Assembly (NCBI GenBank): GCA_005880985.1
Contig: VBIQ01000024.1
Location: forward strand, 6,429 to 70,428
Direction: 5' to 3'
Length of the DNA stretch: 64,000 nt
DNA from: Chloroflexota bacterium
Lineage (GTDB): Bacteria > Chloroflexota > Dormibacteria > Aeolococcales > Aeolococcaceae
Shown piece after piece: positions 12,701 through 43,749 of this stretch. Both the position numbers and the translations under genes were made by a program. Within the stretch, counting starts at the first letter, position 1. The number at the start of each line of letters is the position of its first letter. The notes under the pieces were generated by a model. The model was not told the DNA's origin. It saw nothing but the letters and a program-made list of their open reading frames with translations, and did not search any database.

Positions 12701-13025
12701 CAAGACGTGGCCCCCGCTCGCCGCCCTGCCTGCGGCCCCCCTCGCAGTCGGCACCGACGAAGTATCGCACCGTCTGCGCCCGTGTACGTGCGACGGCAAT
12801 GGGCAATTTCGCCGATGCCGGTCCCCTGGGAACCGGCTGGCCGCCGGCGGGGCCGTGGCCGCCCAGATCAGGGCCAGGACCGGCGCGGGTATCGGACAGC
12901 GCCGATCGGTCTTTGTCCACGCAATAGGCCATCTCGCCGATGACACCTCTGGCCCGGCGGCAGAGACTGTCGGGCAGACGAGGTGGTCGGGCCGCTGTGG
13001 TCTGGACCGACGAGGGGGGACGACC
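12701..13025. promoter_or_regulatory. divergent intergenic/promoter region between the LAL regulator operon and the first Nif11-leader-like giant protein gene; RBS GAGGGGGGA about 9 nt upstream of the GTG at 13026
   Basis: 325-bp non-coding gap between divergent starts. The purine-rich Shine-Dalgarno element is the same one seen upstream of paralogs 4-6 (AAGAGGGGGxCxCATG). Confidence 0.4.
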
Positions 13026-16000: not shown

Positions 16001-16730
16001 TGGCAATCCGATCACCGACTCCAACGGCAACCCGATGGGCGAGAACGGCCAACCGATCGGCGCCAGCACTGGACAAGACGCGTCACAGCAGACAACGAGC
16101 ACGACCGCGGATGGATCGCAACCGACTGCCACGGCCACGTCGGCCGATGCGTCGCAGCAGACCACGGCGACGTCAGACACCACTCAGCAGACGGCGACTG
16201 ATCCGACACAGCAGGCGGCGGCTCAGGCGGCAGTAGATCAAGCGGCCCAGCAGGCGACAGCCGACCAGGCGGCGCAACCGGCGGCCGACCAGGCGGCGCA
16301 GCAGGCGGCGGCGCAAGCGGCAGCGGACCAGGCGGCGCAGCAGGCGGCGGCGCAAGCGGCAGCCGACCAGGCGGCGCAGCAGGCGGCGGCGCAAGCGGCA
16401 GCGGACCAGGCGGCGCAGCAGGCGGCGGCGCAGGCGGCAGCGGACCAGGCGGCGCAGCAGGCGGCGGCGCAGGCGGCAGCGGACCAGGCGGCGCAGCAGG
16501 CGGCGGCGCAGGCGGCAGCCGACCAGGCGGCGCAGCAGGCGGCGGCGCAAGCAGCAGCAGACCAGGCGGCGCAGCAAGCAGCGGCGGACCAGGCCGCGGC
16601 GCAAGCGGCAGCCGACCAGGCCGCGGCACAGGCGGCAGCAGACCAGGCCGCGGCACAGGCGGCAGCAGACCAGGCGGCTGCGGACGCCGCCGCCGCCGCG
16701 TCCGCGGCACCGTCGGACGGAAGCAGCTAA
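13026..16730 (+). CDS. giant acidic repeat protein with N-terminal Nif11/NHLP-type leader-like domain (paralog 1 of 6); His/Pro/Gly-rich region, ~30x 15-aa HGEILGPDGxPILG repeats, C-terminal 13-aa QAAAD repeats
   Basis: GTG start with RBS (Val153 of track ORF 12570..16730). The N-terminus VADAAFRTVVARMAADPEFAARVRGDATSALAEFDLTDEERAQL...GQRISRSSLFFGGSGGS is shared with 5 downstream paralogs. There is no hydrophobic signal peptide. Confidence 0.75.
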   Translation: MADAAFRTVVARMAADPEFAARVRGDATSALAEFDLTDEERAQLALLESDTTSSAANLGQRISRSSLFFGGSGGSAPPGTVPHAAAEEAVQVAQAGDQPVVTVHETAAHAMAASGQADPTLASADLGQGGQPSLASEIQHEHDLDRQIAELRIERDLLDARITEQTLAGGGDPGLTSPGDGGAMVPGGLGHGVPGGVGGSPLEAIPSLGHPHPGAPHGGMPPGAVAHAEARHPGAPAGHAGGGVPGAPAVHPGGGSQPGVQAPGAGAGSAATPHGAGAPPVPPWAHPGAIAAAAHPGSAAAPPSPAGHGQHSFGGGAVRPGAGAGAATAPHAPGTTQHPGAGAGTASAPHPQTAAPVPDSVSHFARSVQDYVHRTHHQPSEEWYTYLRQHGAPPADDNYGPPPVHPGFTAPRPGTPFGPSPAAPTVSPQDAQLLPHTGDPVVDAANQHILADYLQHYHHRPTDAWLAYFRDFGHPPKDDLFGMPGHPHPDGPPAVGLKPKPDTTTTTSKPPKPGTTTGGGGGGGRPSGGGGAGASGGHPGGGSGGGGQPAGGGGGGGHGGHSGPTQPGGRGANPDPWGSMGVQDPGQWQEPHPGPHPPHPGDGTGDHGKHVPPTPDSTHDHLGPHGELIKADGSPILGPHGELLGADHKPILGTSGELLGPGMQGVLGPHGEIVGPDGKPILGENGEILGRDGSPLTGPHDEILGPNGKPILGDHGEILDFHSDPITGPHDEILGPDGKPILGAHGEILDVDGKSMVGSSGEILGPDGNPALGQHGEIIHPDGSPFLGNLGELQGPNGIPAHGSHGEILGPDGTPLLGANNELLRPDGDSLTGAHGEILGRDGTPITGSHGEILDPDMHQLTGGHGEILGPDGTPVLGSNGEILNTDGNAILGNNAELLKPDGTPVTGPHGEVLGDGGAPLLGPDHELQDANFAPILGSHGEILGGDGMPVLGGNGELMGPGGQQILGSHGEILDSGGKPILGLNGEILDTNGNPITDSNGNPMGENGQPIGASTGQDASQQTTSTTADGSQPTATATSADASQQTTATSDTTQQTATDPTQQAAAQAAVDQAAQQATADQAAQPAADQAAQQAAAQAAADQAAQQAAAQAAADQAAQQAAAQAAADQAAQQAAAQAAADQAAQQAAAQAAADQAAQQAAAQAAADQAAQQAAAQAAADQAAQQAAADQAAAQAAADQAAAQAAADQAAAQAAADQAAADAAAAASAAPSDGSS
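14890..16070 (+). repeat. about 30 tandem 45-bp coding repeats (15-aa unit G-x-HGE-I/L-LGPDG-x-P-I/L-L)
   Basis: Direct reading of translation: LGPHGELIKADGSPILGPHGELLGADHKPILGTSGELLGPG...GSHGEILDSGGKPILGLNGEILDTNGNPI. Confidence 0.8.
16210..16700 (+). repeat. about 10 tandem near-identical 39-bp coding repeats (AAQQAAAQAAADQ)
   Basis: The DNA unit gaccaggcggcgcagcaggcggcggcgca(a/g)gcggcagc(g/c) recurs head-to-tail at the 3' end of paralog 1. Confidence 0.8.
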
Positions 16731-28839: not shown

Positions 28840-31800
28840 ATGTCGAGTCAGAGTGTGAGCGATGCCCTCGCCAGGATGGCTTCGGACGAGACGTTTGCGC
28901 AAGCGGTGCGCAAGAACGCCAGGAAGGCTCTGGCCGATTACGACCTCACCGACGATGAGCGGCGCGCTCTGGCGACGATGACGACAGAGGCCGCAACTCG
29001 AGGGCCCTCCACGCTCGGCCAGCGCCTGTCGAAGTCAAGCCTCTTCGGGATGAGCGGCGGTGGGGGAACGGCTGCACCCGCCGCAGCGCCCGGTGAGCTC
29101 GTGGACGATGCGCAAGGCGGCGGTAACGGAGCGACTGCGGGGGGAAACGGCGAGGCGGGTGTCGATGACCAGACTATCGACGCCGCTCCGGTCGTGCCAG
29201 TCGATGCCAGCATGGTCGACGCGCCCACCAGCGTGATGGCCGAGGCAGCCGATACGGGAACGGTCGGCGACGGCGGCGGCGGGAGCGAGTGGACGAGTCT
29301 GATCGACACGTCGTCCGGCGATACCGGCGACGGTGGCGACGCTGGTGGCGACGTGAGCGCTGGCGAAACCGTGGTTGCCGATCCCAGCACCGCTGAAGTC
29401 GACCCGTCGACCGGCGGATCCTCCGTCGGCGGCGATCCCGTGCAGTCGCCGGACCTTGCTGCCGGTCAGACGTCCGACCAACCTGATGGCGCGTGGCAGA
29501 GCCTGCTCGGCAATGGTAGCGCGACAGCTGAGCCGGCGGTTCTCACGTCGGCGCCCGTCGCCGAGTCCTCGGGTGCGAGTTCTCCCTCTGACGTCGTCCT
29601 GGTTGACGCGACCTACGACACCGGAACCGCCGACACGACCGTGACCGAGTCCGGCGATGGGAGCGACCAGGTGACGGTCGATGCCTCATCACCCGACGCG
29701 ACGGACGCCGCGCCTGCCGATGCCACGTCGACTGACGCCGCTCCGATCGATGCGCAGGCGGGCCAGTCGCTGGATGCGACCTCAACCGACGGCACGGACT
29801 CGACCTCGGGCGGGAATGGCGCCGTCGATCCGGCGATGACAGGCCAGGCAGTGGACAGCACGACAGGCGATACGGCGGGCACCACCGATACCACGGGGAC
29901 GGATCAGCAGCCAGCCGATCAGCAGTTGACCGATCAGCAGTCGACCGACCAGCAGTCGACCGACCAGCAGTCGACCGACCAGCAGCCCACCGACCAGCAG
30001 TCGACCGACCAGCAGCCGACCGATCAGCAGCCGACCGATCAGCAGCCGACCGATCAGCAGCCGACCGATCAGCAACCGATCGATCAGCAGTCGACCGACC
30101 AGCAGTCGACCGATCAGCAACCGACCGATCAGCAACCGACCGACCAGCAGTCGACCGACCAGCAGTCGACCGACCAGCAACCGACCGACCAGCAGAGTAC
30201 CGACCAGCCCACCGACACCAGTGGGGGTGATGGCGGGCACGATGGAGTGGTCGACCCGGCCGGAACTGCCGGTCTGGTGGGGGCCGATGCCGCAGCGCAG
30301 GCTGGTGCCGCGGCGGCTCAGGGTTCGGTTGCCGAGACCGCACAGGGTGCAGGCGCGCAGCCAGCCGCCGCGGGTGCAGTGCCCGCCGCTGTACCGGCCG
30401 CCGCTGCGCCGCCGCCGCCACAGGCTGCCTCGGTACCCGCGGTGCCGGCTGCGCCCACACCGGCTGCGGCCGCACCCGCGCCCGCCCAGGCCGCGGCCGC
30501 ACAAGCGCCCGCACAGGCGCCCGCACAAGCGGCCGCACAAGCGCCCGCACAAGTGCCCGCACCGGCCGCGCCTGCACAGGTGACCCCCGCGCCGGTTGCA
30601 CCCGCACCCGTCGCGCCTGCCGTCGACTACACGAAGGGATTGAACCCATTGCCTCCGGACTCGCCGGACTACATCAAGGAATGGTGGCAGCAGGTCAAGG
30701 CTGGAGACCCGCAGGCCATCCAGAGCTGGCACGACACTATGGGGACTATCGACGACACCGCTCGACACGGGGCGCAGCAGGCTCAAGCTGCTGCCGAGTT
30801 CAAGGCAGCGCAGTCGCAATCGGGGTGGGAGAAGGCAACGCAGTTTGTCGGCGATACGCTCGACAACGCATCGCAGACGGTAAAGGACACAGCTGCCCAG
30901 GCGAGCGAGAAGGCCGGTCAGGCATTCGATGCTGCGGCTCCGACCCTGCAGAAGTTCTCTGACACTGTGTACTCGGCGGGAGCCCAGGCAATCTGGGGTG
31001 ACGAGAGCGCGGCTGCGCAGCAGGCTGCCGAGGCCAAGGGCGGTGCGGTCGACGAGACCAGCCCGACGATGGCGTTCGTCAAGAGTCTCTACAACGAGAA
31101 CTGGTCGGAGGACGCCCTGAAGACACTGGCGCCCGTCGGACAGGGAATCATCGACTTCGGGACCAGCACCGCCCAGAGCATCGCCGACATTCCGCACGGG
31201 ATCGCCCAGTTGAGCACGCTGAGCACCGATGAGGTGAAGGCTCTGATCAAGCCGATCACGGACATCCCGGGCGGGATCGCCGAACTCAGGTCGATGAACG
31301 TCGACGAGCTCAAGGGCACCCTGATGCAGACCCTGGTCGACGGTCTCGAGGCGACGGGGCACCATGACCTTGCCCAGGGAGTGCAGGACGGCCGGCTGGA
31401 TGTTCCGACAGCCTTACTCAAGGTGGGCGACGACGCGATCAAGGACGTCAAGCATTGGACCAACGACCAGGTCCAGATGGCTCGGGACAATCCTGACCAA
31501 TTCCGTCAGGTCTGGGGCCACCGCACCGGGACGCTGATCGGCCAGATCCTGCTGGCGGAGGCGACCGGCGGCGGAGGCGGAGGCGCCGCCGGCGAGGGCG
31601 CGGCCGCGGAGGGCGGCCTCGCTCGCGGAGCATTGGCCGAGGGCACTGCGGCGGAGGGCTCCGTTGCGCGTGGGGCTCTGGCCGAGGGCACAGCGACCGA
31701 AGCCGGCGTGGCCCGCGGTGCTGTGTCGGAAGGGACCAGCGTCGAGAGCGCCGCTGCGCGAGGCGGCGTCAGTGAAGGAGCCGGTCCTCTCGAGCGACCG

Positions 31801-33231
31801 CTCGGCGAGCCGGCAACTCCGACGAGCGAAGCGCCGACGCAGGCCTACCCGAAGGGTGAAGCGCCGACGCAGTCCTATCCGCAGGGCGAGGCGCCGACAC
31901 AGACCTACCCGAAGGGCGAAGCGCCGACGCAGTCCTATCCGCAGGGCGAGGCGCCGACACAGACATACCCGAAGGGCGAAGCGCCGACGCAGTCCTATCC
32001 GCAGGGCGAGGCGCCGACGCAGGCCTACCCGCAGGGTGAAGCGCCGTCCGCACCGCCTGCGAACGAGGGTCCTCTGGCGCCTCCAAAGCTGCCGGAAACG
32101 CCGCACCCGGTGCCGAGCGAAGCGCCGACGACACGCTACCCGAGCTCCGAACCCACCGGTCCCGGGAACACCGAGATGCCGCGTGCGGACGGCAGCGCGC
32201 CGCGCTCAGCGCAGCGATTCGATCCCCAGCAGATCGACCCCACCGGCGACCTAGGCAGGGAATTCGACGCCATGCGCGAGCAGGCGGCGCGCGAGGCGGC
32301 GGGGACTGCGCCACAACCGGAGCTGCCGCCGCAAAGTGTCGAGCCTGCCGGTCCGCAGTCGTCGGAAGGCCCCAGCAACGTACCGCGCCAGGAGCTGCCG
32401 CCGACCGAGACGCGTGCCGTCGATCCGGTGCGGTCTGCGACCACCGAGCGCATCCCGGGCGACGGCGGCACCCAGCCATACAGCGCCGACGAGTTCGCCA
32501 AGACGCAGCAGTGGCAGCCGGGCCAGGATCCTTTCGCGTCACCAGAGGCACCGCAGGGCCCCACCGGCACCCAGCCGTACAGCGCCGACGAGCTCGCCAA
32601 GACACAGCAGTGGCAGCCGGGCCAGGATCCTTTCGCGCCGCCCGACGCGCTGCAGGGCCAGTCCGGTGAGTGGGGAATGGGATTCCAGAACGCCGACACC
32701 ATGCCCGGCTACCAGGCGCTGCCCGACACTCCCGAATGGCTGAACCTCCAGCAGGCCGAGGAGGAGATGGCCACACACCAGGCGACGCTCGATGCCCTGC
32801 GGGCCGAAGGTGTGGACGTCGACGGCATCGTCCAGCGTGGCGGTCTGGATCTCACCGACCCTGCGGACCTGCAAAGAGCGGTCGATGAGGCCATGACTCA
32901 GAGCGTCGACATGGGCAACGTCCAACTTGTCGAGCCGGGCGATCCGGACCTGCAACTGATCAAGGATGCAGCCATGCGACAGGCGGAGGCTGTGGCCAAC
33001 CCGCTGGTGGCCGACACGCCCGCATACCGCGAGCTACAGGCGCAACTGCAACACCGCATGAACGACCCCGCATTCGTCTCCAAGCTGGAGAGTGGGGTAC
33101 AGGTCGTCAGGGACGCCGATGCCGTCACCCACAACCCGATCGCGTCACCCGAAGAGCTGGCGCGCATCCGTGACATGGCAACGGGTGGAGCGGGGTACTC
33201 GCCGATCGATCACACGGGCCCGATCCGCTGA
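28840..33231 (+). CDS. giant acidic protein with N-terminal Nif11/NHLP-type leader-like domain (paralog 6 of 6, 1463 aa); (Q/P)TDQQ(S/P) hexapeptide array, Ala/Pro-rich linker, ~800-aa largely non-repetitive C-terminal region with internal GEAPTQSYPQ decapeptide repeats
   Basis: ATG at 28840 is preceded by AAAGAGGGGGACGTC. The N-terminus is MSSQSVSDALARMASDETFAQAVRKNARKALADYDLTDDERRALATM...GQRLSKSSLFGMSGGGG. The C-terminal region VDYTKGLNPLPPDSPDYIKEWWQQVKAGDPQAIQSWHD... is predicted helical/globular. Confidence 0.8.
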   Translation: MSSQSVSDALARMASDETFAQAVRKNARKALADYDLTDDERRALATMTTEAATRGPSTLGQRLSKSSLFGMSGGGGTAAPAAAPGELVDDAQGGGNGATAGGNGEAGVDDQTIDAAPVVPVDASMVDAPTSVMAEAADTGTVGDGGGGSEWTSLIDTSSGDTGDGGDAGGDVSAGETVVADPSTAEVDPSTGGSSVGGDPVQSPDLAAGQTSDQPDGAWQSLLGNGSATAEPAVLTSAPVAESSGASSPSDVVLVDATYDTGTADTTVTESGDGSDQVTVDASSPDATDAAPADATSTDAAPIDAQAGQSLDATSTDGTDSTSGGNGAVDPAMTGQAVDSTTGDTAGTTDTTGTDQQPADQQLTDQQSTDQQSTDQQSTDQQPTDQQSTDQQPTDQQPTDQQPTDQQPTDQQPIDQQSTDQQSTDQQPTDQQPTDQQSTDQQSTDQQPTDQQSTDQPTDTSGGDGGHDGVVDPAGTAGLVGADAAAQAGAAAAQGSVAETAQGAGAQPAAAGAVPAAVPAAAAPPPPQAASVPAVPAAPTPAAAAPAPAQAAAAQAPAQAPAQAAAQAPAQVPAPAAPAQVTPAPVAPAPVAPAVDYTKGLNPLPPDSPDYIKEWWQQVKAGDPQAIQSWHDTMGTIDDTARHGAQQAQAAAEFKAAQSQSGWEKATQFVGDTLDNASQTVKDTAAQASEKAGQAFDAAAPTLQKFSDTVYSAGAQAIWGDESAAAQQAAEAKGGAVDETSPTMAFVKSLYNENWSEDALKTLAPVGQGIIDFGTSTAQSIADIPHGIAQLSTLSTDEVKALIKPITDIPGGIAELRSMNVDELKGTLMQTLVDGLEATGHHDLAQGVQDGRLDVPTALLKVGDDAIKDVKHWTNDQVQMARDNPDQFRQVWGHRTGTLIGQILLAEATGGGGGGAAGEGAAAEGGLARGALAEGTAAEGSVARGALAEGTATEAGVARGAVSEGTSVESAAARGGVSEGAGPLERPLGEPATPTSEAPTQAYPKGEAPTQSYPQGEAPTQTYPKGEAPTQSYPQGEAPTQTYPKGEAPTQSYPQGEAPTQAYPQGEAPSAPPANEGPLAPPKLPETPHPVPSEAPTTRYPSSEPTGPGNTEMPRADGSAPRSAQRFDPQQIDPTGDLGREFDAMREQAAREAAGTAPQPELPPQSVEPAGPQSSEGPSNVPRQELPPTETRAVDPVRSATTERIPGDGGTQPYSADEFAKTQQWQPGQDPFASPEAPQGPTGTQPYSADELAKTQQWQPGQDPFAPPDALQGQSGEWGMGFQNADTMPGYQALPDTPEWLNLQQAEEEMATHQATLDALRAEGVDVDGIVQRGGLDLTDPADLQRAVDEAMTQSVDMGNVQLVEPGDPDLQLIKDAAMRQAEAVANPLVADTPAYRELQAQLQHRMNDPAFVSKLESGVQVVRDADAVTHNPIASPEELARIRDMATGGAGYSPIDHTGPIR
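29905..30210 (+). repeat. about 25 tandem 18-bp coding repeats ((Q/P)TDQQ(S/P))
   Basis: The DNA units cagtcgaccgaccagcag / cagccgaccgatcagcag alternate head-to-tail. Confidence 0.8.
31828..32050 (+). repeat. about 7 tandem 30-bp coding repeats (GEAPTQSYPQ / GEAPTQTYPK)
   Basis: Direct reading: EAPTQAYPKGEAPTQSYPQGEAPTQTYPKGEAPTQSYPQGEAPTQTYPKGEAPTQSYPQGEAPTQAYPQGEAP. Confidence 0.8.
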
Positions 33232-33254: not shown

Positions 33255-34925
33255 CTACCCGGTGGGGGAGGTATGCGGCGGGAGCACCGGCAGGGGCAGT
33301 CCGTCGTCGAAGTTCTCGCCGCCGCTCGGGGGAGGTGTGGCGTCCGGCGGGCCGCCGCCTCCTGGCTCGCCGGATGCAGCGCCGCCCGATGCGCCCTTGG
33401 CGGCTGCCGCGGCGGCCGCTGCCGCCAGCGCCGCCCCCAGCGCCAGTAGCCCGGCGGCGTTGCCGCCGGCGCCGACCCACCCATCAAGAGCGCGCGCGAG
33501 ATGACCGGCGCCGCTCGGAGACACGTAGAGGCTTCGCGGCACCAACCAGCCGAAGGCAGCGATGACCAGGCTGGACACCGCCGCGGCAGCCAGGAGCATT
33601 GCCAGATGGCGCCGCAGCGGGGCCTGGTCGGCCGCACCGGCGGTGTCGTCCACCCGGCGCTCACCGAGCAGGCCGCGCAGCGCCCAGACGACAGCGACTG
33701 CGGCGACGATGATCAGCCCCAGCGCCACCGGCGAACTGCTCAACGAGGTCGACAGTCTTCCGGGCAACGCGGTGGGACGCAACGCGAAGAAGAGGATTGC
33801 GACGACAGCCAGGGCGATTCCACCGGCGTGCCGCCACGCCCAGTCGGCGAGCGCGTCACGATCCACGGCCGGGATCCAGCTGCCGGTCTCGATCTCCGCC
33901 TCATCGAGTGCCGGTCGCGCTTCGGTCAGGCGCTGCTCGAGAGTCACCGCCTCAGCGGCGAGGGCGGCGTCCTCGGGATGAGCGGCGGCTTGGTCGGCGA
34001 TCATCGCGAACGCCCTGCGCTCCCTGAAGAAGGCGAGGGTGTCGCGCAGCGCGGGCCAGCCGAGTCGCACCCGGAGCAGGGCGACGCCCCAGTGAACGAA
34101 GGTGTCGGTGCTGCCTCGCTCGATGTCGAGGAGCATCTCCGGATGCTGCTCGAGCCGCCGTCTGGCGCGCATCTCCTCGACGATGGCGAAGAGGAGCAGC
34201 GCGATCGGGAGCACGATGAGCTCGAGGCGGCCGTGGTCGGTGAGGTAGTAGAGAATCCGCGGCACGCGCGCGAGGGAGGCGGGATGGTACGGGTTCGCGC
34301 CGGCAGCCGTGGCGATCGCCGCGTCGCGCAGCTGCCAGTTGAAGACGGCATGGTCGAGGGACACCCAGCCGATCGCGAGCACCGCCGGTAACCAGGCAAA
34401 GCCGCTCTTCGGCCGGAGGCGCCGGCCGAGCCCGGCGGCAAGGCCGACCACGCCGGTCCAGACCCCGTGTCCCGCGGCCACCACCAGCCCACCGATGCCG
34501 ATGCGCAGGCCGGCGATGAACGGTGTGACGTCGGCGACGTCGTGCGCGATGGTGCCTCGCGTCAGGGCGCGCAGATTGCTTTCGGCGAACTCGAAGCCGA
34601 GACCGCTGGCCAGGCCGATGAGCGCCAGGTCGGTGATCGTCAGGCGCCTGCCGTCACGCCACACAAACGCGATGAGCAGGACCGGCGCCGCCTTGGCCAG
34701 CTCCTCGACCACTGGGCCGGCCGAGTAGGAGTAGCTCGCGGTCCCCATCCGGATGCTGAGCAGTCGCGCGACGAGCAGCGAGACGGCGGTGGCGCCGATG
34801 CATCCCCAGGCGAAGAGCTGAAGAAATCGCCGCGGAGACACCGTGGTGCGCAGGGCGAGGAGACGGCACTCCGTCCAGAGCAGGAGCAGGAGACCGGCCA
34901 GCTCCAGTGTCGGCCAGACGTTCAT
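33255..34925 (-). CDS. PrsW/CPBP-like polytopic intramembrane protease (putative) with long Ala/Gly/Pro-rich C-terminal extension
   Basis: ATG at 34925 (Met37 of track ORF 33255..35033). It has 8 or more TM helices, an EExxK-type motif (PVVEELAKAAPVLL) and an HxxxN motif (SLDHAVFNW). The FxxxH motif is not clearly conserved, so the assignment is tentative. It is convergent with paralog 6, with stops 23 nt apart. Confidence 0.5.
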   Translation of the reverse strand: MNVWPTLELAGLLLLLWTECRLLALRTTVSPRRFLQLFAWGCIGATAVSLLVARLLSIRMGTASYSYSAGPVVEELAKAAPVLLIAFVWRDGRRLTITDLALIGLASGLGFEFAESNLRALTRGTIAHDVADVTPFIAGLRIGIGGLVVAAGHGVWTGVVGLAAGLGRRLRPKSGFAWLPAVLAIGWVSLDHAVFNWQLRDAAIATAAGANPYHPASLARVPRILYYLTDHGRLELIVLPIALLLFAIVEEMRARRRLEQHPEMLLDIERGSTDTFVHWGVALLRVRLGWPALRDTLAFFRERRAFAMIADQAAAHPEDAALAAEAVTLEQRLTEARPALDEAEIETGSWIPAVDRDALADWAWRHAGGIALAVVAILFFALRPTALPGRLSTSLSSSPVALGLIIVAAVAVVWALRGLLGERRVDDTAGAADQAPLRRHLAMLLAAAAVSSLVIAAFGWLVPRSLYVSPSGAGHLARALDGWVGAGGNAAGLLALGAALAAAAAAAAAKGASGGAASGEPGGGGPPDATPPPSGGENFDDGLPLPVLPPHTSPTG

Positions 34926-34935
34926 CGAGTCGGTC

Positions 34936-35868
34936 TCAGCACGCCGCGGTGACCAAGGAGTTCGCCGCCTGCTGCACGTTGCTGCCGCCAAAGAACCGGC
35001 CGTTTCCCTGGACAGCAATCTGTCGCATCGCATTCATCTGGTCCGGTGAATGATCGATGTCGACGCCGACGGTGTTGACGGCGATGCCCTTGTGCGTCAT
35101 ATCGCTGAGCAGTTCCGGCGGCGGCGAGCTGGCGTCGCCGTCGCCCATGAGAATGACCTGCTTGACCTCCGGCCGGTTGGCGAGCATGTCGCGCGCCTCG
35201 CGGACGTAGGGCTCGTAGCTGCCGGGATCACCGATGTTGATGAACTGCTTGACCAGGTTGTTCTTGGACGTGTCATCGCCCGCCGGCTGGAGCTTGGCCA
35301 GCGGTTTGGCCGCGCTGTCCGGGAAGCCGATGAGGTCGTTCGGTGACAGACGCGAGATGAACGTCTTGGCGGCGTCGAAGACGAGGCTGTTGCTGGCCTG
35401 GTCCTCGACGTCCTCGATGAGGATGATCACCGCAGCGGTCTGCGGCCCGGCGGCGCCGCCTCCGGCAGCGGAGCCGATGCAGGTCCGACAGCTGTCCTCA
35501 TAGGCGGTGAGGCGTGCGGTCGCCAGCGGGCTCCCCGGCGGCGTTCGGGCACCGTGTGTTCCGCTATCCGACGGCGAGGGAGGTGCGTGCAGCTGGACGG
35601 CGACCTGGCAGTAGTCGCCCTTGGTCGGAGCGCCGCCGGTCGGCTTGGAACCGACTCCGGACTTGGGTTGGCCCACCTCGGCGCCGACTATGACGACGAC
35701 CATTCCCAGGATCACCGTCGCCGCGTGGATGTGCCATCGACGGCGGGGACGTGGTCGCGGGGTGGGGCGCCGCGGCCGCGGTCGCGGCGGTGGTTTAGGT
35801 GCGCCGGGTCGCGGCCGCCTCGGGGGGAACCAGGGCGGACGCGGCGGGCGCGCCCCGGGAGGGTGCAC
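34936..35868 (-). CDS. membrane-anchored von Willebrand factor type A (vWA) domain protein; start uncertain
   Basis: The C-terminal vWA fold reads AVIILIEDVEDQASNSLVFDAAKTFISRLSPNDLIGFPDSA...KQVILMGDGDASSPP...GIAVNTVGVDID...AVQGNGRFF. It is preceded by a TM helix (HAATVILGMVVVIVGAEVG) and an Arg/Pro-rich cytoplasmic N-terminus. A GTG candidate start lies at about 35868. The upstream part of track ORF 34936..36867 overlaps the kinase gene through the poly-G tract. Confidence 0.55.
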   Translation of the reverse strand: MHPPGARPPRPPWFPPRRPRPGAPKPPPRPRPRRPTPRPRPRRRWHIHAATVILGMVVVIVGAEVGQPKSGVGSKPTGGAPTKGDYCQVAVQLHAPPSPSDSGTHGARTPPGSPLATARLTAYEDSCRTCIGSAAGGGAAGPQTAAVIILIEDVEDQASNSLVFDAAKTFISRLSPNDLIGFPDSAAKPLAKLQPAGDDTSKNNLVKQFINIGDPGSYEPYVREARDMLANRPEVKQVILMGDGDASSPPPELLSDMTHKGIAVNTVGVDIDHSPDQMNAMRQIAVQGNGRFFGGSNVQQAANSLVTAAC

Positions 35869-37376
35869 GCCGGGTGGCCGCACGGTCGGAGGCACGACGG
35901 GGGGTTTCGAGGGCGGCGGAGTCGCAGGGGGCCGGGCGGCGGGGCGCACGACGGGGGGTTGAGTTGCGGGTGGCGGAGCGGTGGGGGGGCGGGGGGGGGG
36001 GGCGGGGGTGGGGGGGGGGCGGGGGGCGGCGGGGGGGGGGGGGTCGCGGGGGGCGGGGCGGTGGGGGGTGTCGCGGGGGGTTGAGTCGCGGGTGGGTGAG
36101 TCGCGGGTGGCGGAGCGGTGGGGTGAGTCTCCGGCGGATGGGCGGCTGGTGGCTCCGCCACCGGATGCGTTCCCGGCGTATGCGTCGGAGGAGCGTGTGT
36201 CGCCGGCGGCTCCACCCCTGGCGGATGCACGCCCGCCGGATGCACCGCCGGTGGCTGCGCCGCCGGATGCACCGGCGCCCCGGGGTGGTGCGGCGCGGTG
36301 GGCGCGACGTGATGCGGTGCGCCTGGGGCAACGTGGTGTGGTGGCGGCGCTGTGTGGGCCGGACCGGCAGGCGGCGTCGCCGCCGGTGTCTGCGCCGGTG
36401 GCGCAACCGGGTGCCCGGGCGCGGGGGTCGCGGGTGCGGACGGGGAAAGCGGAGAGATGCTGGTCGCCGCCGAGACAGCAGGTCCGCTCGCCACCGTGGC
36501 TGCGCCGCCGCCGAGAACGCTGGCGATCGGCAGCAGTGCCACCACCCCGACGGCAGCACCGCCGAGGACCGCGAGTCCCTGCTCCTCCCAGCCGTGCCCG
36601 TAGCCGCGGCGCGCGGCGTCCTCGAGCTCGCCGAGGAACTCGCCGGCGGTACCGAAGCGCTCGGCCGGGCTCTTGGCCATCCCCTGCCGGACCAGACTGC
36701 GCACCGGTTCCGGCACATCCTGGACAGGAACCGGAGCGCTCTGGTGCTGCAGCCGAAGCATGGCGTTGTCGCGGGCATCGAACGGGGGATGGCCGGCCAG
36801 GCACTCGTAGAGGACCGCCGACGCCGCGTAGACGTCGGTCTGCGGCGTCGCCTCGCCGGCCGCCCACTGTTCCGGGGCCATGTACTCCGGTGTTCCTGCG
36901 CGCCAGCCTCCCTCCCCGCGCCGGACAGCGATGCCGAAGTCGACCAGTCGGGAGCGCCCCGCCCCGTCGACGAGCACGTTTGCCGGCTTGTAGTCGCGGT
37001 GGACGATGCCGGCGCGATGGGCTTCTTGGAGGCCGAGCAGCGAGCCGCGCATCACCGCGAGCGCAGCCTCGGGGCGGGTCGGCCCCGACGAGATCAGCCG
37101 CTGCAGAGGCGCCCCACGCACGAGCTCCATGACGATCGCCGCAAGGCCGGCGGCCTCGATGTACTCGTAGAGGGCGACGATGTTGGGGTGTTGAATGGTC
37201 CGCAGCACTGCGGCCTCGGCCCGGAAGCGGTCGAGGAATGTCTCGTCGCCGAGGAACTCCGGGCTCAGCCGCTTGATGGCGACGAGCTCGCCCGTGGGTT
37301 CGTGGCGTGCGGCCTCGACGGTGCCGGTGGCGCCGGCGCCGAGCTCGGAGAGCGTGGTGTAGTCGCGGATCGGCAC
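35712..37376 (-). CDS. Hanks-type serine/threonine protein kinase with TM segment and His/Pro-rich plus poly-proline C-terminal tail (C-terminal end uncertain)
   Basis: Complete catalytic motifs are present: GxGxxG (LGAGATGTV), VAIK, HRD (IVHRDYKPANVLV), DFG (VDFGIAV) and APE (GTPEYMAPEQ). The TM helix is AVLGGAAVGVVALLPIASVL. After the poly-P tract the frame becomes Arg-rich, possibly out of frame. Confidence 0.8.
   Translation of the reverse strand: MPIRDYTTLSELGAGATGTVEAARHEPTGELVAIKRLSPEFLGDETFLDRFRAEAAVLRTIQHPNIVALYEYIEAAGLAAIVMELVRGAPLQRLISSGPTRPEAALAVMRGSLLGLQEAHRAGIVHRDYKPANVLVDGAGRSRLVDFGIAVRRGEGGWRAGTPEYMAPEQWAAGEATPQTDVYAASAVLYECLAGHPPFDARDNAMLRLQHQSAPVPVQDVPEPVRSLVRQGMAKSPAERFGTAGEFLGELEDAARRGYGHGWEEQGLAVLGGAAVGVVALLPIASVLGGGAATVASGPAVSAATSISPLSPSAPATPAPGHPVAPPAQTPAATPPAGPAHTAPPPHHVAPGAPHHVAPTAPHHPGAPVHPAAQPPAVHPAGVHPPGVEPPATHAPPTHTPGTHPVAEPPAAHPPETHPTAPPPATHPPATQPPATPPTAPPPATPPPPPPPAPPPPPPPPPAPPPLRHPQLNPPSCAPPPGPLRLRRPRNPPSCLRPCGHPACTLPGRARRVRPGSPRGGRDPAHLNHRRDRGRGAPPRDHVPAVDGTSTRRR
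35981..36080. other. about 100-nt near-homopolymeric G tract on the plus strand, coding poly-proline on the minus strand ([21 protein letters not shown])
   Basis: Lines 35981-36080 are about 90% G. They lie in the overlap between the kinase and vWA reading frames. The tract is slippage-prone. Confidence 0.9.
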
Positions 37377-37399
37377 CTGATCGTCTCAGCGGTCAGCAG

Positions 37400-37888
37400 T
37401 CACGGTGCCGCCTGGTGCGGGACCGGCGCGGTCGCCGCGGCCAGCCGATCGCACAACGCCGTCGCCTCGACGCTGAAGAAGGACGGGACGTTGATGCGCT
37501 TCACGCCGTTGGGGAAGCGCAGCTTGATGTACACGTAGCCCAGCCGCAGGGTCATCGCCGAGCCCCGGCTGAGGTTCCGCTCGGTCACGGCGACGTCGGT
37601 GCGCGGTGCGCTGAGCAGCAGCTCCTTGGCGGAGCCGACCCGCCACTTCGAGCCGCGCAGCACCAGCACGCGCCGATCGGTGAGAGCGACCACGTAGGAC
37701 GGCACGAAGAACAGCGACGCGATGAGGACCGGGATGACGCCGGCAAGAAAGAGCCAAGCCCAGGCCCACGGGTTGGGGCCGCCGATGGCTGGCATGGCGA
37801 CCACCGTGCTCTCTCCCGACTCGAGGAAGGGAGTGATGGCGGCGCCGAGGCGCGCACCGAGCTTCTCCCTGCGACTGGACATGGCCAA
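37400..37888 (-). CDS. small membrane protein with bacterial PH-like (YdbS/DUF304-type) domain
   Basis: 162 aa with two adjacent TM helices (PWAWAWLFLAGVIPVLIASLFFVPSYVVAL), then DRRVLVLRGSKWRVGSAKELL...VAVTERN. This matches the bPH_2 topology. Confidence 0.45.
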   Translation of the reverse strand: MAMSSRREKLGARLGAAITPFLESGESTVVAMPAIGGPNPWAWAWLFLAGVIPVLIASLFFVPSYVVALTDRRVLVLRGSKWRVGSAKELLLSAPRTDVAVTERNLSRGSAMTLRLGYVYIKLRFPNGVKRINVPSFFSVEATALCDRLAAATAPVPHQAAP

Positions 37889-41564: not shown

Positions 41565-42478
41565 GACCGCGCATCGAGGTGTCCCGCCCCGACAAGATGC
41601 TCTTTCCCGACGACCGGATCACCAAGGCCGAGCTGGCCGAGTACTACGCCGCGGTCGCCGAGGTGATGGTGCCGCACACCCGCGGTCACCCGGTGATGAT
41701 GCAGCGGTTCCCCAACGGCATCGACCGCCCCGGCTTCGTGCAGAAGGCGTCGACGCATGCGCCCGCCTGGGTGCACCTCGTCGAGGTGCCGAAGAAGGGC
41801 GGCACCGTCACTCACGTGATGATCGACGATGCGGCGACGCTGGTGTGGCTCGCCGACCAGGCGTGCATCACCCCGCATCTGCTGCTCAGCCGGGCCGACC
41901 GGCTGGACCGGCCCGATCGCCTGATCTTCGACCTCGACCCATGGGGTGACGACCCCGCCGGGGTCCGCACCGCGGCGCTGTGGTTGCGCGACCTGCTCAC
42001 CGATCTCGCGCTGCCGCCGCTGGCGATGGCGACCGGGTCTCGCGGCGTCCACCTGGTCATCGCCCTCGACCGCGCCGCCGGCTTCGACGAGACTCGCCGC
42101 TTCGCCTGGGACGTGGCGGACCTGCTGGCCCGGCGCCATCCCGATGCGCTGACGGTAGAGACGCGTCGCGCCGCCCGTAGAGGCCGCCTCTACCTCGACA
42201 TCCTGCGCAACGGCTACGCGCAGTCGACGGTCGCGCCCTACGCGGTGCGGCCGATCAAGGGGGCGCCGGTGGCGGTGCCGCTGCGGTGGGAGGAGGTCGA
42301 GGACAAGCGGTTCGACCCTCGCCGGCATACCCTGCGCACCACCCCCGAGCGGATCCGGCGCGACGGCGATCCGTGGGCGGGGATGACCCGGCGCGGGCGC
42401 TCGCTGCGCCAGCCGCGACGGCGGCTCGACGCCATGCGCGGCAGCGAGGGAGGCGTCAGCGCTTCGCCAGGCGCCTGA
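41561..42478 (+). CDS. LigD-type primase-polymerase domain protein (NHEJ polymerase)
   Basis: The GTG overlaps the ligase stop (GTGA). It reads ...FPDDRITKAELAEYY...MMQRFPNGI...LIFDLDP...GSRGVHLVIAL...YLDILRNGYAQSTVAPY, which is characteristic of PolDom. It is read from the C-terminal part of track ORF 40214..42478. Confidence 0.75.
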   Translation: MRPRIEVSRPDKMLFPDDRITKAELAEYYAAVAEVMVPHTRGHPVMMQRFPNGIDRPGFVQKASTHAPAWVHLVEVPKKGGTVTHVMIDDAATLVWLADQACITPHLLLSRADRLDRPDRLIFDLDPWGDDPAGVRTAALWLRDLLTDLALPPLAMATGSRGVHLVIALDRAAGFDETRRFAWDVADLLARRHPDALTVETRRAARRGRLYLDILRNGYAQSTVAPYAVRPIKGAPVAVPLRWEEVEDKRFDPRRHTLRTTPERIRRDGDPWAGMTRRGRSLRQPRRRLDAMRGSEGGVSASPGA

Positions 42479-43688
42479 CGCGGGAGGGAACGTGCGGCCG
42501 TGTCCGGCGACCGCGGCGATCGCTGTCGCCCGCCGTCGCCTCGCGCACGCGGGCGATGAGCACCACCCCGCGCACTCCCTTGAGGTGTCGCGGCAGAGGG
42601 CGCGACCAGGAGAACCGCCCCTTGGTCGCAGCGCGAAGCTCGGCGGTGCCGACCACCGTCCCCGGCCTGGCGACGGCGGTGATCCTGCTCGCCAGGTTGA
42701 CGACATGGCCGTACCAGTCGCCGCTGACGGGCACCGCCGGGCCGTGGGCGACGCCGGCGCGCAGCTGCGGAAAGTGCTCGCCCTCGGCGTCGACCGCAGC
42801 CACCAGGTTCAGCACATCCTCGACCAGCCGGCAGGCGTCGGGAGACACGAGCATCACCGCGTCGCCGACGTACTTGACGACCGTCACCGGCGGTGACACG
42901 ACGTCGCTGGCGAGCTCCCCGAGGCGCACGGCGACGCGACCGACCTCGTCGGCCTCGACCCGGGTGCCCATGCGGGTGAATCCGACGAGGTCGGCGAAGG
43001 CGACGGCGACGTCGCGCGACGCTTGGATCTGCCCGCTGACGCGCTCCTCCCGGCCGATGGTCTCCTGGCGGAGGGCCTCGCGGATGTGCAGGCGCAGCTG
43101 GTAGTCGACCAGTGGACCGATCAGTGGCATCAGCTCGTCGGCGGCCTGGGCATAGCGGGTCCCGAGCTCGTACTCGGTGTCACCGGGCTGGAGGTAGGTC
43201 TCGCCGGCGATTCGCAGGATCGCGCGCGCCGTGCTCGCCGCTCCCTGACCGGCGACGCGGGCGACCTCGAGCACGGACTCGAAGGGGATGCCGGCGTCGA
43301 GCAGGCGGCGGAGCCGGCGGGCGGCGGCCACGTCCCACGCGGTCAGCTCCTCGGGAGCCTGCGTCCCCGAGGCGCGCACGTAGGCGGCGAGCTCGTCCCG
43401 CCCGACACCGCTGTTCTTCTCGAGCGCCTCGTCCCCGTAGCGTCGCCTCCCGGCGAGGGCGATCTCGGCGGGAATGAGCGCGAGGCGGTCCTCGTCGACC
43501 GCCCGCTGCAGATCGGCTCGCGAGACGCCGGCCTGCATCAGCTCGCGCAGCAGCCGTCGCCGGGCGCGGCGCTCGGCCTCGCTGCGGGTGCCGCGGAGCA
43601 GGGGATCGCCGGCGGCGAGGCGGACCTGGCCGTCGGGGTGCCCACCGGTCCGACGCGTGGTCGCCGGCGGCTTGGAGGTACCGCTCAT
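42456..43688 (-). CDS. class III adenylate/guanylate cyclase with N-terminal regulatory region
   Basis: The C-terminal CHD domain reads VAVAFADLVGFTRMG...VKYVGDAVMLV...GVAHGPAVPVSGDWYGHVVNLASRI. Confidence 0.7.
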   Translation of the reverse strand: MSGTSKPPATTRRTGGHPDGQVRLAAGDPLLRGTRSEAERRARRRLLRELMQAGVSRADLQRAVDEDRLALIPAEIALAGRRRYGDEALEKNSGVGRDELAAYVRASGTQAPEELTAWDVAAARRLRRLLDAGIPFESVLEVARVAGQGAASTARAILRIAGETYLQPGDTEYELGTRYAQAADELMPLIGPLVDYQLRLHIREALRQETIGREERVSGQIQASRDVAVAFADLVGFTRMGTRVEADEVGRVAVRLGELASDVVSPPVTVVKYVGDAVMLVSPDACRLVEDVLNLVAAVDAEGEHFPQLRAGVAHGPAVPVSGDWYGHVVNLASRITAVARPGTVVGTAELRAATKGRFSWSRPLPRHLKGVRGVVLIARVREATAGDSDRRGRRTRPHVPSRVRRLAKR

Positions 43689-43749
43689 CGCTTAGAGTGT
43701 GCCGCCAAGGTGGTCACCGGCTCTTGCCGGTGGATGAGGGAGGACAACC

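What the first reader, a model, noticed from the sequence alone, without database searches (positions are those of the whole stretch)
35700..36900. 100-nt poly-G tract encodes poly-proline and sits exactly where the Ser/Thr-kinase and vWA reading frames overlap
The kinase frame (ending 35712) and the vWA frame (open from 36867) overlap for about 1.1 kb on the same strand, and both traverse the G-homopolymer region 35981-36080. The kinase's post-TM tail encodes [21 protein letters not shown] and then turns into Arg-rich sequence, which suggests it is out of frame beyond the tract. There are two possibilities. The first is two separate genes, kinase and vWA, whose boundaries are blurred by frame-independent Pro coding. 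The second is one kinase-TM-polyPro-vWA fusion protein with a slip-strand frameshift in the G run. Such a frameshift could be a phase-variation switch or an assembly error in a homopolymer. A long poly-Pro tract also implies EF-P-dependent translation.
Basis: seen in the sequence. Interest (0 to 1): 0.6.

Follow-up and report, generated by a model that had tools for sequence, protein, structure and literature searches.

The report
Receptor kinase split by unresolved C-run
The kinase and the vWA reading frames are most likely one membrane receptor kinase gene, about 813 codons long, that this assembly splits by one base inside a G/C-rich, proline-coding stretch no other assembly could read through; it is probably an assembly problem, not new biology.

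Summary
Positions 35981-36080 hold 83 G, 11 C and 6 T, and the longest pure G runs are 13, 12 and 10.

The genes lie on the minus strand, so the tract encodes a Pro-rich linker. A DNA and peptide repeat (ACCGCYCCGCC, TAPP...) occurs three times. Copies 1 and 2 are 57 nt apart and in the kinase frame. Copy 3 is 80 nt further on and in the vWA frame. One extra C in any of the six runs gives a single 813-aa ORF.

That ORF reads kinase, conserved hydrophobic segment, Pro-rich linker, poly-Arg, TM helix, extracellular vWA-fold domain. Single-polypeptide relatives of this kinase have the same layout.

Six short-read contigs from four sample records stop at the tract and one scaffold has an N gap. 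One 99%-identical strain lacks the tract and reads in frame. Only 45 nt (35987-36031) are unique to this assembly, and the break lies there or in the adjacent C13 run.

- **Best reading:** one gene, with the tract length mis-assembled or heterogeneous.
- **Not excluded:** a real slip-strand variant.
- **Unlikely:** two separate genes, or programmed recoding.

Interest is low to moderate.

The parts
36651..37361 (-). Hanks-type Ser/Thr protein kinase catalytic domain. The ORF starts at GTG 37376.
   Evidence: Pfam Pkinase, E 1.8e-44, aa 6-242. K35, H126-R127-D128, N133, D146-F147-G148 and A167-P168-E169 are invariant in the alignment with 8 relatives.
36513..36569 (-). Conserved hydrophobic segment H1 (VLGGAAVGVVALLPIASVL).
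   Evidence: Hydropathy peak at aa 270-288. It follows the conserved Y259 G260 W263 G267 L271 ... P283 block shared by all 8 relatives.
36081..36512 (-). Pro/Ala/Thr/His-rich low-complexity linker, read in the kinase frame.
   Evidence: Translation. Tandem repeats of 12-57 nt. The linker of the repaired protein is 41% Pro.
35981..36080 (-). C-rich tract on the coding strand (G-rich on +), with runs of 13, 12 and 10. It is a degenerate continuation of the TAPPPAT repeat.
   Evidence: Composition and runs. Repeat copies at 36119, 36062 and 35982 are spaced 57 nt (in frame) and 80 nt (out of frame).
35985..36043 (-). Interval that must contain the -1 frame break. 35987-36031 is the only part of the locus not corroborated by any other assembly.
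   Evidence: Frames. Contig ends: L009 at 36032, L010 and L011 at 36068, L002 at 35986, L003 and L004 at 35973; N gap in L001.
35731..35984 (-). Continuation of the Pro-rich linker in the vWA frame, ending in a poly-Arg stretch (RPRPRRPTPRPRPRRRW).
   Evidence: Translation. RRRW..HAATVIL is conserved in the 73% ortholog L007, with synonymous changes in this frame only.
35712..35984 (-). Kinase-frame tail after the tract (LRHPQLNPPSC...TSTRRR*), judged to be an out-of-frame reading.
   Evidence: It is Arg/Cys/Leu-rich. It reads the repeat copy as LRHPQLN rather than TAPPPATQ. All four codons that differ from L007 are non-synonymous in this frame.
35674..35730 (-). Transmembrane helix TM2 (IHAATVILGMVVVIVGAEV), preceded by poly-Arg.
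   Evidence: Hydropathy peak at aa 550-568 of the repaired protein. The same poly-Arg plus TM arrangement is seen in P0004, P0005 and P0006.
34936..35436 (-). Extracytoplasmic vWA-fold domain without a canonical MIDAS motif, including the stop codon.
   Evidence: Pfam VWA_3 at 21.1 bits, below the cut-off of 27. Profile hits to vWA domains of VWA+GATase1_like proteins, E down to 1.9e-32. AF2 model plus Foldseek hits to BatB, integrin I and vWF A domains at probability 1.0.
33255..34925 (-). PrsW-family intramembrane protease gene, 10 nt downstream on the same strand.
   Evidence: Pfam PrsW-protease, E 7.3e-15. Gene order in L001-L003.
37400..37882 (-). 160-aa gene of unknown family immediately upstream on the same strand.
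   Evidence: Called in L001 and L008-L011. No Pfam hit. Strong SD-like AAGAGGGGG upstream.

Best explanation
The kinase frame and the vWA frame are two halves of one gene for a receptor-type Hanks Ser/Thr kinase of about 813 aa.

**Proposed layout:**
- cytoplasmic kinase domain;
- conserved hydrophobic segment;
- disordered Pro-rich linker of about 260 aa ending in poly-Arg;
- a single TM helix;
- an extracytoplasmic vWA-fold domain that probably binds a protein or other ligand outside the cell.

The gene sits between a 160-aa gene and a PrsW-type membrane protease.

**The frame break:** in this MAG contig the reading frame is broken by one base (one C too few, or two too many) inside the C-rich part of the linker. 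The most likely reason is that the tract length is wrong or not representative. This stretch is 94% G+C with runs of 10-13, short-read assemblies cannot traverse it, and it is polymorphic between strains.

**Shown:** the frame relation of the repeats, the failure of the other assemblies, the family architecture and the vWA fold.

**Inferred:** that the break is an artefact, the membrane topology, and the sensing function.
For: 1. The repeat ACCGC[CT]CCGCC (TAPP...) sits at 36119, 36062 and 35982. The spacings are 57 nt (0 mod 3) and 80 nt (2 mod 3). The same peptide TAPPPAT[HQ]PP is therefore in the kinase frame before the tract and in the vWA frame after it.
2. One C added to any of the six runs gives one 813-aa ORF without stops.
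3. Relatives at 50-57% identity, including proteins from isolates (Hamadaea tsunoensis P0011, Actinoallomurus P0022, Catellatospora P0026), are single polypeptides. They share the kinase, the conserved hydrophobic segment at about 270-290, a variable low-complexity linker, a TM helix and a C-terminal domain. In P0004-P0006 the TM helix is preceded by poly-Arg. The repaired protein matches this, with H1 at 270-288 and TM2 at 550-568.
4. L005, a strain 98.9% identical, lacks the tract. It reads APPPATHPPATHPTAPPPATQPPVV... straight into TM2 and the vWA domain in one frame.
5. Six contigs stop at the tract and one scaffold has an N gap. The window is 99.9-100% identical without gaps to these contigs on both sides, so only 35987-36031 is unique to it. 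A JGI 226-kb contig gives yet another junction (P0003, which jumps to the third frame).
6. Stand-alone homologs of the vWA domain carry signal peptides and N- and C-terminal Cys residues. That places the domain outside the cell and the poly-Arg inside, as in a receptor kinase.
7. No SD-like motif precedes any candidate start in the vWA frame, and the called ATG and GTG starts cut the TM helix. Three of the six other gene starts inspected in the window carry a clear SD-like motif.
Against: - No assembly shows the complete fused ORF. L005 reaches only 45 nt upstream of the junction, so attachment to the kinase in that strain is inferred from the repeat sequence.
- No ortholog with a fused kinase-vWA protein was found among 5.8 billion proteins or 1.84 billion representatives. 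None of the 20 vWA homologs scanned has a kinase domain.
- Stand-alone versions of the vWA domain exist.
- The kinase-frame stop overlaps a GTG in a GTGA arrangement, conserved in L007. This pattern is also typical of coupled separate genes.
- Two hydrophobic segments in one chain leave the topology of H1 unexplained.
- No reads were available, so the true tract length is unknown.
Confidence: 0.6

Rival explanations
1. The gene is a single receptor kinase, but the frame break is real. Slipped-strand mispairing in the C13, C12 or C10 runs produces frame-shifted variants in the population. In these variants only a 554-aa kinase without membrane anchor and sensor is made. This is either a reversible ON/OFF (phase-variation) switch or a pseudogene in this strain.
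For: - Runs of 10-13 identical bases inside an ORF are the classic substrate for slippage.
- The locus differs between samples. The window, L009 and partly L001 carry the tract. L005 lacks it, with hints of the same allele in the last base of L010 and the His codon of P0003. L001 has a 15-nt difference at the left edge.
- Homopolymer phase variation is documented in another high-GC bacterium, M. tuberculosis (PMC10334774, PMC6667613; titles and abstracts as listed).
Against: - The differences seen between assemblies are whole repeat units or presence/absence of the tract, not run-length variants.
- Every one of them lies at a contig end or next to a gap.
- The only uncorroborated 45 nt are exactly where the break must be.
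- No read data were examined.
- Nothing indicates that a truncated kinase would be useful.
Confidence: 0.22
2. There are two separate genes. One is a kinase with a long Pro-rich, then Arg-rich, tail ending at 35712. The other is a vWA protein that starts independently, at one of the GTGs at 35949-35868 or at the GTG or ATG at 35715/35703. Pro-rich coding in both frames blurs the border.
For: - NCBI annotates the 554-aa kinase (TMC47668.1), and gene callers call a 255-257-aa vWA protein.
- Stand-alone secreted or anchored homologs of the vWA domain exist: P0123, P0125, P0132 and P0133.
- The GTGA stop/start overlap is conserved in L007.
Against: - The called starts leave a hydrophobic stretch of only 10-13 residues with no charged N-region. 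The ATG is not conserved (Met to Gly in L007). In L007 the frame stays open for 36 codons upstream with no start codon, and RRRW..HAATVIL is conserved.
- No SD-like motif precedes any candidate start.
- The kinase-frame tail has four Cys and reads the repeat as LRHPQLN.
- This kinase would be the only member of its subfamily examined that lacks a TM helix and a C-terminal domain.
- An overlap of more than 240 nt between two coding frames would be needed.
Confidence: 0.13
3. The sequence is correct and the full-length protein is made by recoding. This would be -1 ribosomal slippage (or two +1 slips) of tRNA-Pro on the C runs, or RNA polymerase slippage on the homopolymers.
For: - C CCC CCC is formally a perfect slippery heptamer.
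- The C13 and C12 runs are longer than the roughly 9-bp RNA-DNA hybrid of a transcription complex (hybrid length is general knowledge; the runs are).
Against: - The RNA downstream has no structure beyond shuffled controls (z = 0.21).
- The tract is absent in a 99%-identical strain that is simply in frame, so the site is not conserved.
- The slip typical of Pro codons is +1, which leads into the third frame, with a stop at 35795.
Confidence: 0.04

Closest known systems
Receptor-type Hanks Ser/Thr kinases of Gram-positive bacteria (M. tuberculosis PknB, PknD and PknH type; own knowledge). The directly compared subfamily is P0004-P0008, P0011, P0022 and P0026.
   Same: N-terminal cytoplasmic kinase with all catalytic motifs, a low-complexity juxtamembrane linker, basic residues on the cytoplasmic side of one TM helix, and a C-terminal extracytoplasmic domain that differs between paralogs.
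   Different: - The ectodomain here is a vWA fold rather than PASTA, beta-propeller, PKD or similar. None of the 20 vWA homologs scanned carries a kinase.
- The linker is unusually long (about 260 aa) and unusually Pro-rich (41%).
- As assembled, the ORF is interrupted.
BatA/BatB-type vWA proteins and the roughly 900-aa VWA_2 + VWA + GATase1_like proteins
   Same: These are the closest sequence relatives of the C-terminal domain (E 1.9e-32 to 1e-11, matching their second vWA domain). BatB (3ibs) and the B. fragilis aerotolerance protein (4jdu) are among the best structural matches.
   Different: - There is no GATase1-like domain and no second vWA domain here.
- The DxSxS MIDAS position reads E-D-V-E-D, and E97 and E100 are invariant in the subfamily.
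- The domain is attached to, or adjacent to, a kinase.
Homopolymer contingency loci (poly-G/C tracts of Campylobacter, Neisseria and Haemophilus from own knowledge; M. tuberculosis glpK and other homopolymer tracts from PMC6667613 and PMC10334774)
   Same: G/C runs of 10-13 inside an ORF, where a 1-nt length change switches the downstream reading frame.
   Different: - No run-length polymorphism has been observed here, only assembly breaks and repeat-unit differences.
- The runs are part of a degenerate Pro-coding repeat rather than an isolated tract near the 5' end.
- The organism is an uncultured soil bacterium.
Low-coverage or mis-assembled extreme-GC, low-complexity regions in short-read metagenome assemblies (own knowledge)
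   Same: - Contigs from four sample records end on both sides of the same 80 nt.
- One scaffold bridges the tract with Ns.
- One assembly collapses it.
- One gives a frame-shifted length.
   Different: Part of the tract is real. L009 independently reproduces the first 32 nt, including 12 Cs of the C13 run.

Membership tests
Hanks-type (eukaryotic-like) Ser/Thr protein kinase | Pfam Pkinase match above the curated cut-off | tested here: met
   152.5 bits against a cut-off of 31.7, aa 6-242.
Hanks-type (eukaryotic-like) Ser/Thr protein kinase | Catalytic motifs: VAIK Lys, HRD...N, DFG and APE | tested here: met
   VAIKRL, HRDYKPAN, DFG and APE are present and invariant among 9 aligned sequences.
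Receptor-type (transmembrane) Ser/Thr kinase | Kinase, one TM helix and an extracytoplasmic domain in one polypeptide | tested here: inconclusive
   Not met by the sequence as assembled, because of the frame break at 35985-36043. Met after adding one C to any run, giving 813 aa with TM2 at 550-568. Relatives meet it.
von Willebrand factor type A (vWA) domain | Pfam VWA-family match above the gathering score | tested here: not met
   VWA_3 at 21.1 bits, cut-off 27, E 3.4e-4. The ortholog P0002 has a precomputed PF13768 hit.
von Willebrand factor type A (vWA) domain | Rossmann-like alpha/beta vWA fold | tested here: met
   AF2 model with pLDDT of 69-95 per ten-residue block over residues 91-255, alternating strand and helix. 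Foldseek matches PTMP1 vWA, BatB, integrin I-domains and vWF A1/A3 at probability 1.0, E 5e-7 to 1e-4.
von Willebrand factor type A (vWA) domain | MIDAS metal-site motif DxSxS after strand beta-1 | tested here: not met
   The loop after beta-1 (strand 90-97 in the model) reads E97-D-V-E100-D. E97 and E100 are invariant in 8 homologs.
Phase-variable contingency locus (slipped-strand mispairing) | Homopolymer or short repeat inside the ORF, or between promoter elements | tested here: met
   C13, C12, C10 and C7 runs on the coding strand.
Phase-variable contingency locus (slipped-strand mispairing) | Run-length variants in the population that switch the frame on and off | not testable with these tools
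   No reads were available. Assemblies differ, but only at contig ends, at gaps and by whole repeat units.
Programmed -1 ribosomal frameshift site | Slippery heptamer followed by a stimulatory RNA structure, conserved in relatives | tested here: not met
   Slippery C runs are present, but the downstream 136 nt fold no better than shuffles (z 0.21). The site is absent in the in-frame strain L005.

The most novel reading that the evidence does not exclude
The C13, C12 and C10 runs are a genuine hypermutable switch in an uncultured soil bacterium. Slippage would toggle the gene between two forms: a membrane-anchored receptor kinase with a vWA sensor, and a 554-aa kinase that has lost its anchor and sensor. 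The population would then carry both signalling states. The tract-bearing and tract-less alleles seen in different samples would be evolvable and locked versions of the same gene.
Probability: 0.1. Interest if true: 0.65.

Novelty: new member of a known kind. Interest (0 to 1): 0.27.

Why it matters
- **Annotation:** the public record probably describes one receptor kinase as a 554-aa kinase with a nonsense tail plus an uncalled or truncated vWA protein. Gene callers on other assemblies start the vWA protein in the middle of its TM helix.
- **Method:** this is a clean example of an extreme-GC, Pro-coding low-complexity linker breaking short-read metagenome assemblies and producing false frameshifts. 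Overlapping same-strand ORFs across a homopolymer-rich tract should be read as one gene until reads say otherwise.
- **Biology:** a Hanks kinase with an extracytoplasmic, MIDAS-less vWA domain is an uncommon sensor combination. None was found among the vWA homologs scanned. It sits next to a PrsW-type protease, which hints at a cell-envelope signalling module.
- **If the run-length variation proved real:** it would be a phase-variable signalling kinase outside the pathogens where such switches are known.

Tried and rejected
- **GC3 frame plot**. It identifies the kinase frame down to about 36560 and the vWA frame from about 35700. It is uninformative in the Pro-rich stretch, because CCN codons make all three positions G+C-rich.
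- **Two exact-pattern scans of metagenome contigs** with the left and right flanks. Both gave 0 hits, although JGI contigs with the right flank exist, so that collection does not hold this population.
- **Scan of genome contigs** with the vWA alignment. No relative was found, so the MAG and its relatives are not among the GTDB species representatives.
- **Exact look-ups** of P0003 and of the 554-aa kinase. Neither is on record, so the 226-kb JGI contig could not be read.
- **Synteny of the closest kinase relatives** P0004, P0005 and P0006. Their neighbourhoods differ and lack PrsW, so they are paralogs. They inform only on protein architecture.
- **SNPs among near-identical strains** between the tract and TM2. 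There are only two, both non-synonymous in the kinase and vWA frames, which is too few to use.
- **Search for kinase-vWA fusions** among vWA homologs. None was found in 20 proteins scanned. The long hits are VWA+GATase1_like proteins.
- **RNA structure downstream of the tract** as a frameshift stimulator. None was found.
- **Literature searches** for the sample identifiers and for bacterial kinases with a vWA sensor. Nothing directly relevant turned up.
- **A poly-G dark-cycle artefact** was considered as the origin of the tract. I rejected it as the sole cause. L009 reaches the tract reading Cs at the 3' end of the minus strand, and the interruptions of the runs keep Ala, Thr and Pro codon phase.
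Full report
**What is in the sequence.** The window has 71% G+C. Both reading frames in question lie on the minus strand.

The kinase ORF runs 37376 to 35712 (554 aa). It has a Pfam Pkinase domain at aa 6-242 (E 1.8e-44) and intact VAIK, HRD, DFG and APE motifs. Apart from the first residue, it is identical to NCBI protein TMC47668.1. That protein comes from a 71-kb contig of a MAG labelled Chloroflexi/Chloroflexota bacterium.

A second frame is open from 36867 to 34936. It ends in a domain with a weak VWA_3 hit.

The "poly-G tract" at 35981-36080 is real and far beyond chance. It has 83 G in 100 nt, against a window mean of 36 and a next-best of 55 (binomial P about 4e-22). It is not a homopolymer: it consists of G runs of 7, 12, 5, 10, 6, 13, 6, 4, 6 and 6 separated by C or T. 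On the coding strand it is a C-rich, degenerate continuation of a Pro/Ala/Thr repeat.

**The frame relation.** The motif ACCGC[CT]CCGCC, which begins the peptide unit TAPPPAT[HQ]PP, occurs at 36119, 36062 and 35982. The first two copies are 57 nt apart and both in the kinase frame. The third is 80 nt further on, which is 2 mod 3, and sits in the vWA frame.

The kinase frame reads this third copy as LRHPQLN. It then continues as Arg/Cys/Leu-rich text to the stop at 35712. The vWA frame reads it as TAPPPATQPPVVRPAARPPATPPPSKPP... and continues as a Pro-rich linker for another 85 codons or so.

The two halves therefore fit together if one C is missing, or two are extra, between 36043 and 35985. 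Inserting one C into any of the six runs gives a single 813-aa ORF with no internal stop. Where the base is missing matters for the peptide. If it is in the C13 run, the product reads ATPPPPAAPRPPPTPAPPPRPPTAPPPATQ.

**Independent assemblies.** The vWA protein as called by gene finders (P0001, 255 aa) and the PKD-domain neighbour on the other side were looked up by exact sequence.
- On the right side, contigs L002, L003, L004 and L006 begin at 35986, 35973, 35973 and 35921.
- On the left side, L009 ends at 36032, after 12 Cs of the C13 run. L010 and L011 end at 36068.
- Scaffold L001/L008 bridges the tract with about 140 Ns.
- These come from ENA, JGI and Logan assemblies of several samples.

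The window is 99.9-100% identical to them, with no gaps, over about 16 kb on the two sides. Only 35987-36031 is unique to this assembly, and the break must lie there or in the adjacent C13 run.

Two further versions exist. P0003 is a 453-aa kinase call from a 226-kb JGI contig. That size matches the sum of the contigs behind L010 and L003 (193,947 + 32,180 bp). It follows the kinase frame to ATQPPATH and then jumps into the third frame.

L005 is a contig from another sample, 98.9% identical. It has no C-rich tract at all and reads APPPATHPPATHPTAPPPATQPPVV... in one frame into the TM helix and the vWA domain. The assemblies that cross the junction thus give three different frame relations, and the rest break there.

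**Family architecture.** The closest relatives of the kinase are 50-57% identical in the alignment. They include proteins from isolates of Hamadaea, Actinoallomurus and Catellatospora. All are single polypeptides.

All share a conserved block after the kinase domain (Y259, G260, W263, G267, L271, P283) that runs into a hydrophobic segment at about 270-290. A low-complexity linker of variable length follows. After it come a strongly hydrophobic helix and a C-terminal domain that differs between paralogs. In P0004, P0005 and P0006 a run of Arg precedes that helix. Precomputed Pfam hits on some members include PKD, He_PIG and CarboxypepD_reg domains.

The repaired protein reproduces this layout: H1 at 270-288, a 258-aa linker with 41% Pro, RPRPRRRW, TM2 at 550-568, then the vWA domain. 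The 554-aa kinase as annotated would be the only one of those examined without a TM helix and C-terminal domain.

**The C-terminal domain.** A profile of the two orthologs, searched against 1.84 billion representative proteins, found 180 hits.
- The best long hits match the second vWA domain of proteins of about 900 aa with the layout VWA_2 + VWA + GATase1_like (E down to 1.9e-32).
- The best short hits are stand-alone proteins of 195-286 aa. Most carry a signal peptide or membrane anchor. They have a Cys near the start of the domain and another at or next to the C-terminus.

An AlphaFold2 model is confident over residues 91-255. It matches BatB, integrin I-domains and vWF A domains at probability 1.0. 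The fold is therefore vWA. The canonical DxSxS MIDAS motif is replaced by E-D-V-E-D, with both Glu invariant in the subfamily.

The signal peptides and the paired Cys of the stand-alone forms argue that the domain works outside the cell. That puts the poly-Arg stretch on the cytoplasmic side of TM2, as expected for a receptor kinase. It also leaves H1 as something other than a simple membrane span, which is an inference. None of the 20 vWA homologs scanned has a kinase domain, so the combination is rare.

**The two-gene alternative.** Six start codons are available in the vWA frame downstream of the tract: GTG at 35949, 35895, 35883, 35868 and 35715, and ATG at 35703. None has an SD-like motif. 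By contrast, three of the six other gene starts inspected in the window carry a clear SD-like motif.

The two starts that gene callers chose cut TM2 and leave no charged N-region. In the 73% ortholog (L007) the ATG is not conserved. Its frame stays open for 36 codons up to the contig end without any start codon. RRRW..HAATVIL is conserved, with two synonymous and two non-synonymous codon changes in the vWA frame; all four changes are non-synonymous in the kinase frame.

Two points favour separate genes: stand-alone homologs of the domain exist, and the kinase-frame TGA overlaps a conserved GTG (GTGA). I rate this reading at about 0.13.

**Why the frame is broken.** No reads could be examined, so this part is inference.
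- An assembly or base-calling length error is the simplest explanation. The stretch is 94% G+C with runs of 10-13, four other sample records failed to cross it, and the assembly is otherwise indel-free.
- Real heterogeneity is not excluded. Tract-bearing and tract-less alleles seem to coexist in nature. Homopolymer slippage is a documented adaptive mechanism in M. tuberculosis (PMC10334774, PMC6667613).
- Programmed recoding is unlikely. The downstream RNA has no structure beyond shuffles (z 0.21). The site is absent from the in-frame strain. The usual +1 slip on Pro codons leads into the third frame, which stops at 35795.

**Verdict.** The locus is best described as one receptor-type Ser/Thr kinase with a long Pro-rich juxtamembrane linker and a vWA ectodomain. 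It lies between a 160-aa gene and a PrsW-family protease gene. The ORF is interrupted in this assembly by a one-base length discrepancy in an unresolved C-rich tract.

It is a new member of a known kind, with an uncommon sensor domain. The frameshift itself is probably not a biological feature. The remark on EF-P rests on general knowledge that consecutive Pro codons stall ribosomes. PPP motifs remain wherever the frame error sits.

Noticed in passing
window 12570-16730 (+): A 1386-aa ORF made largely of repeats: Gly runs, about 30 tandem units of the type GPHGEILGPDGxPILG, and a long AAQAAADQAAQQ tail. The only other long homopolymer of the window (C9 at 14226-14234) lies inside it.
   Followed up: no
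window 28840-33231 (+); L002 and L003: A 1463-aa ORF with no Pfam hit contains 60-nt tandem repeats (about 31826-32046 and 29898-30221). Its product is 1463 aa in the window and L002 but 1483 aa in L003. This is a repeat copy-number difference between assemblies or strains.
   Followed up: partly
window 37377-37401 and 34926-34950 (-): The same octamer GCTGAGAC sits 9-11 nt upstream of both the kinase start (37376) and the PrsW start (34925). In the PrsW case its TGA is the stop codon of the vWA gene; upstream of the kinase it lies in the spacer after the 160-aa gene. It may be a shared coupling or weak ribosome-binding signal.
   Followed up: no
window 35983-36080 and 36409-36445 (+): Two of the three G-quadruplex-type motifs on the plus strand of the window lie in this gene, on the template strand for its transcription. 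The first spans the whole tract, with many G runs of at least 3 and 1-nt loops.
   Followed up: no
L001 4102-5046 (-); window about 36594-37538 (+): In the ENA scaffold the gene caller missed the kinase and called a 314-aa antisense ORF over it. This is an example of the long spurious antisense ORFs typical of this G+C content.
   Followed up: no
L013 9534-10268 and window about 42456-43691 (-): A 410-aa Ad_Cy_reg + guanylate-cyclase gene lies near the kinase paralog P0006 as well as near the kinase of the window. It may be a recurrent neighbour, or a sign that the two contigs come from related organisms.
   Followed up: no
vWA subfamily alignment A3: The stand-alone and kinase-linked forms share invariant E97, E100, D159-P160, Y163 and G187-D188-G189-D190. 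They also share a Cys near the start of the domain and another at or next to the C-terminus. This suggests a distinct MIDAS-less, disulfide-closed extracytoplasmic vWA subfamily.
   Followed up: partly
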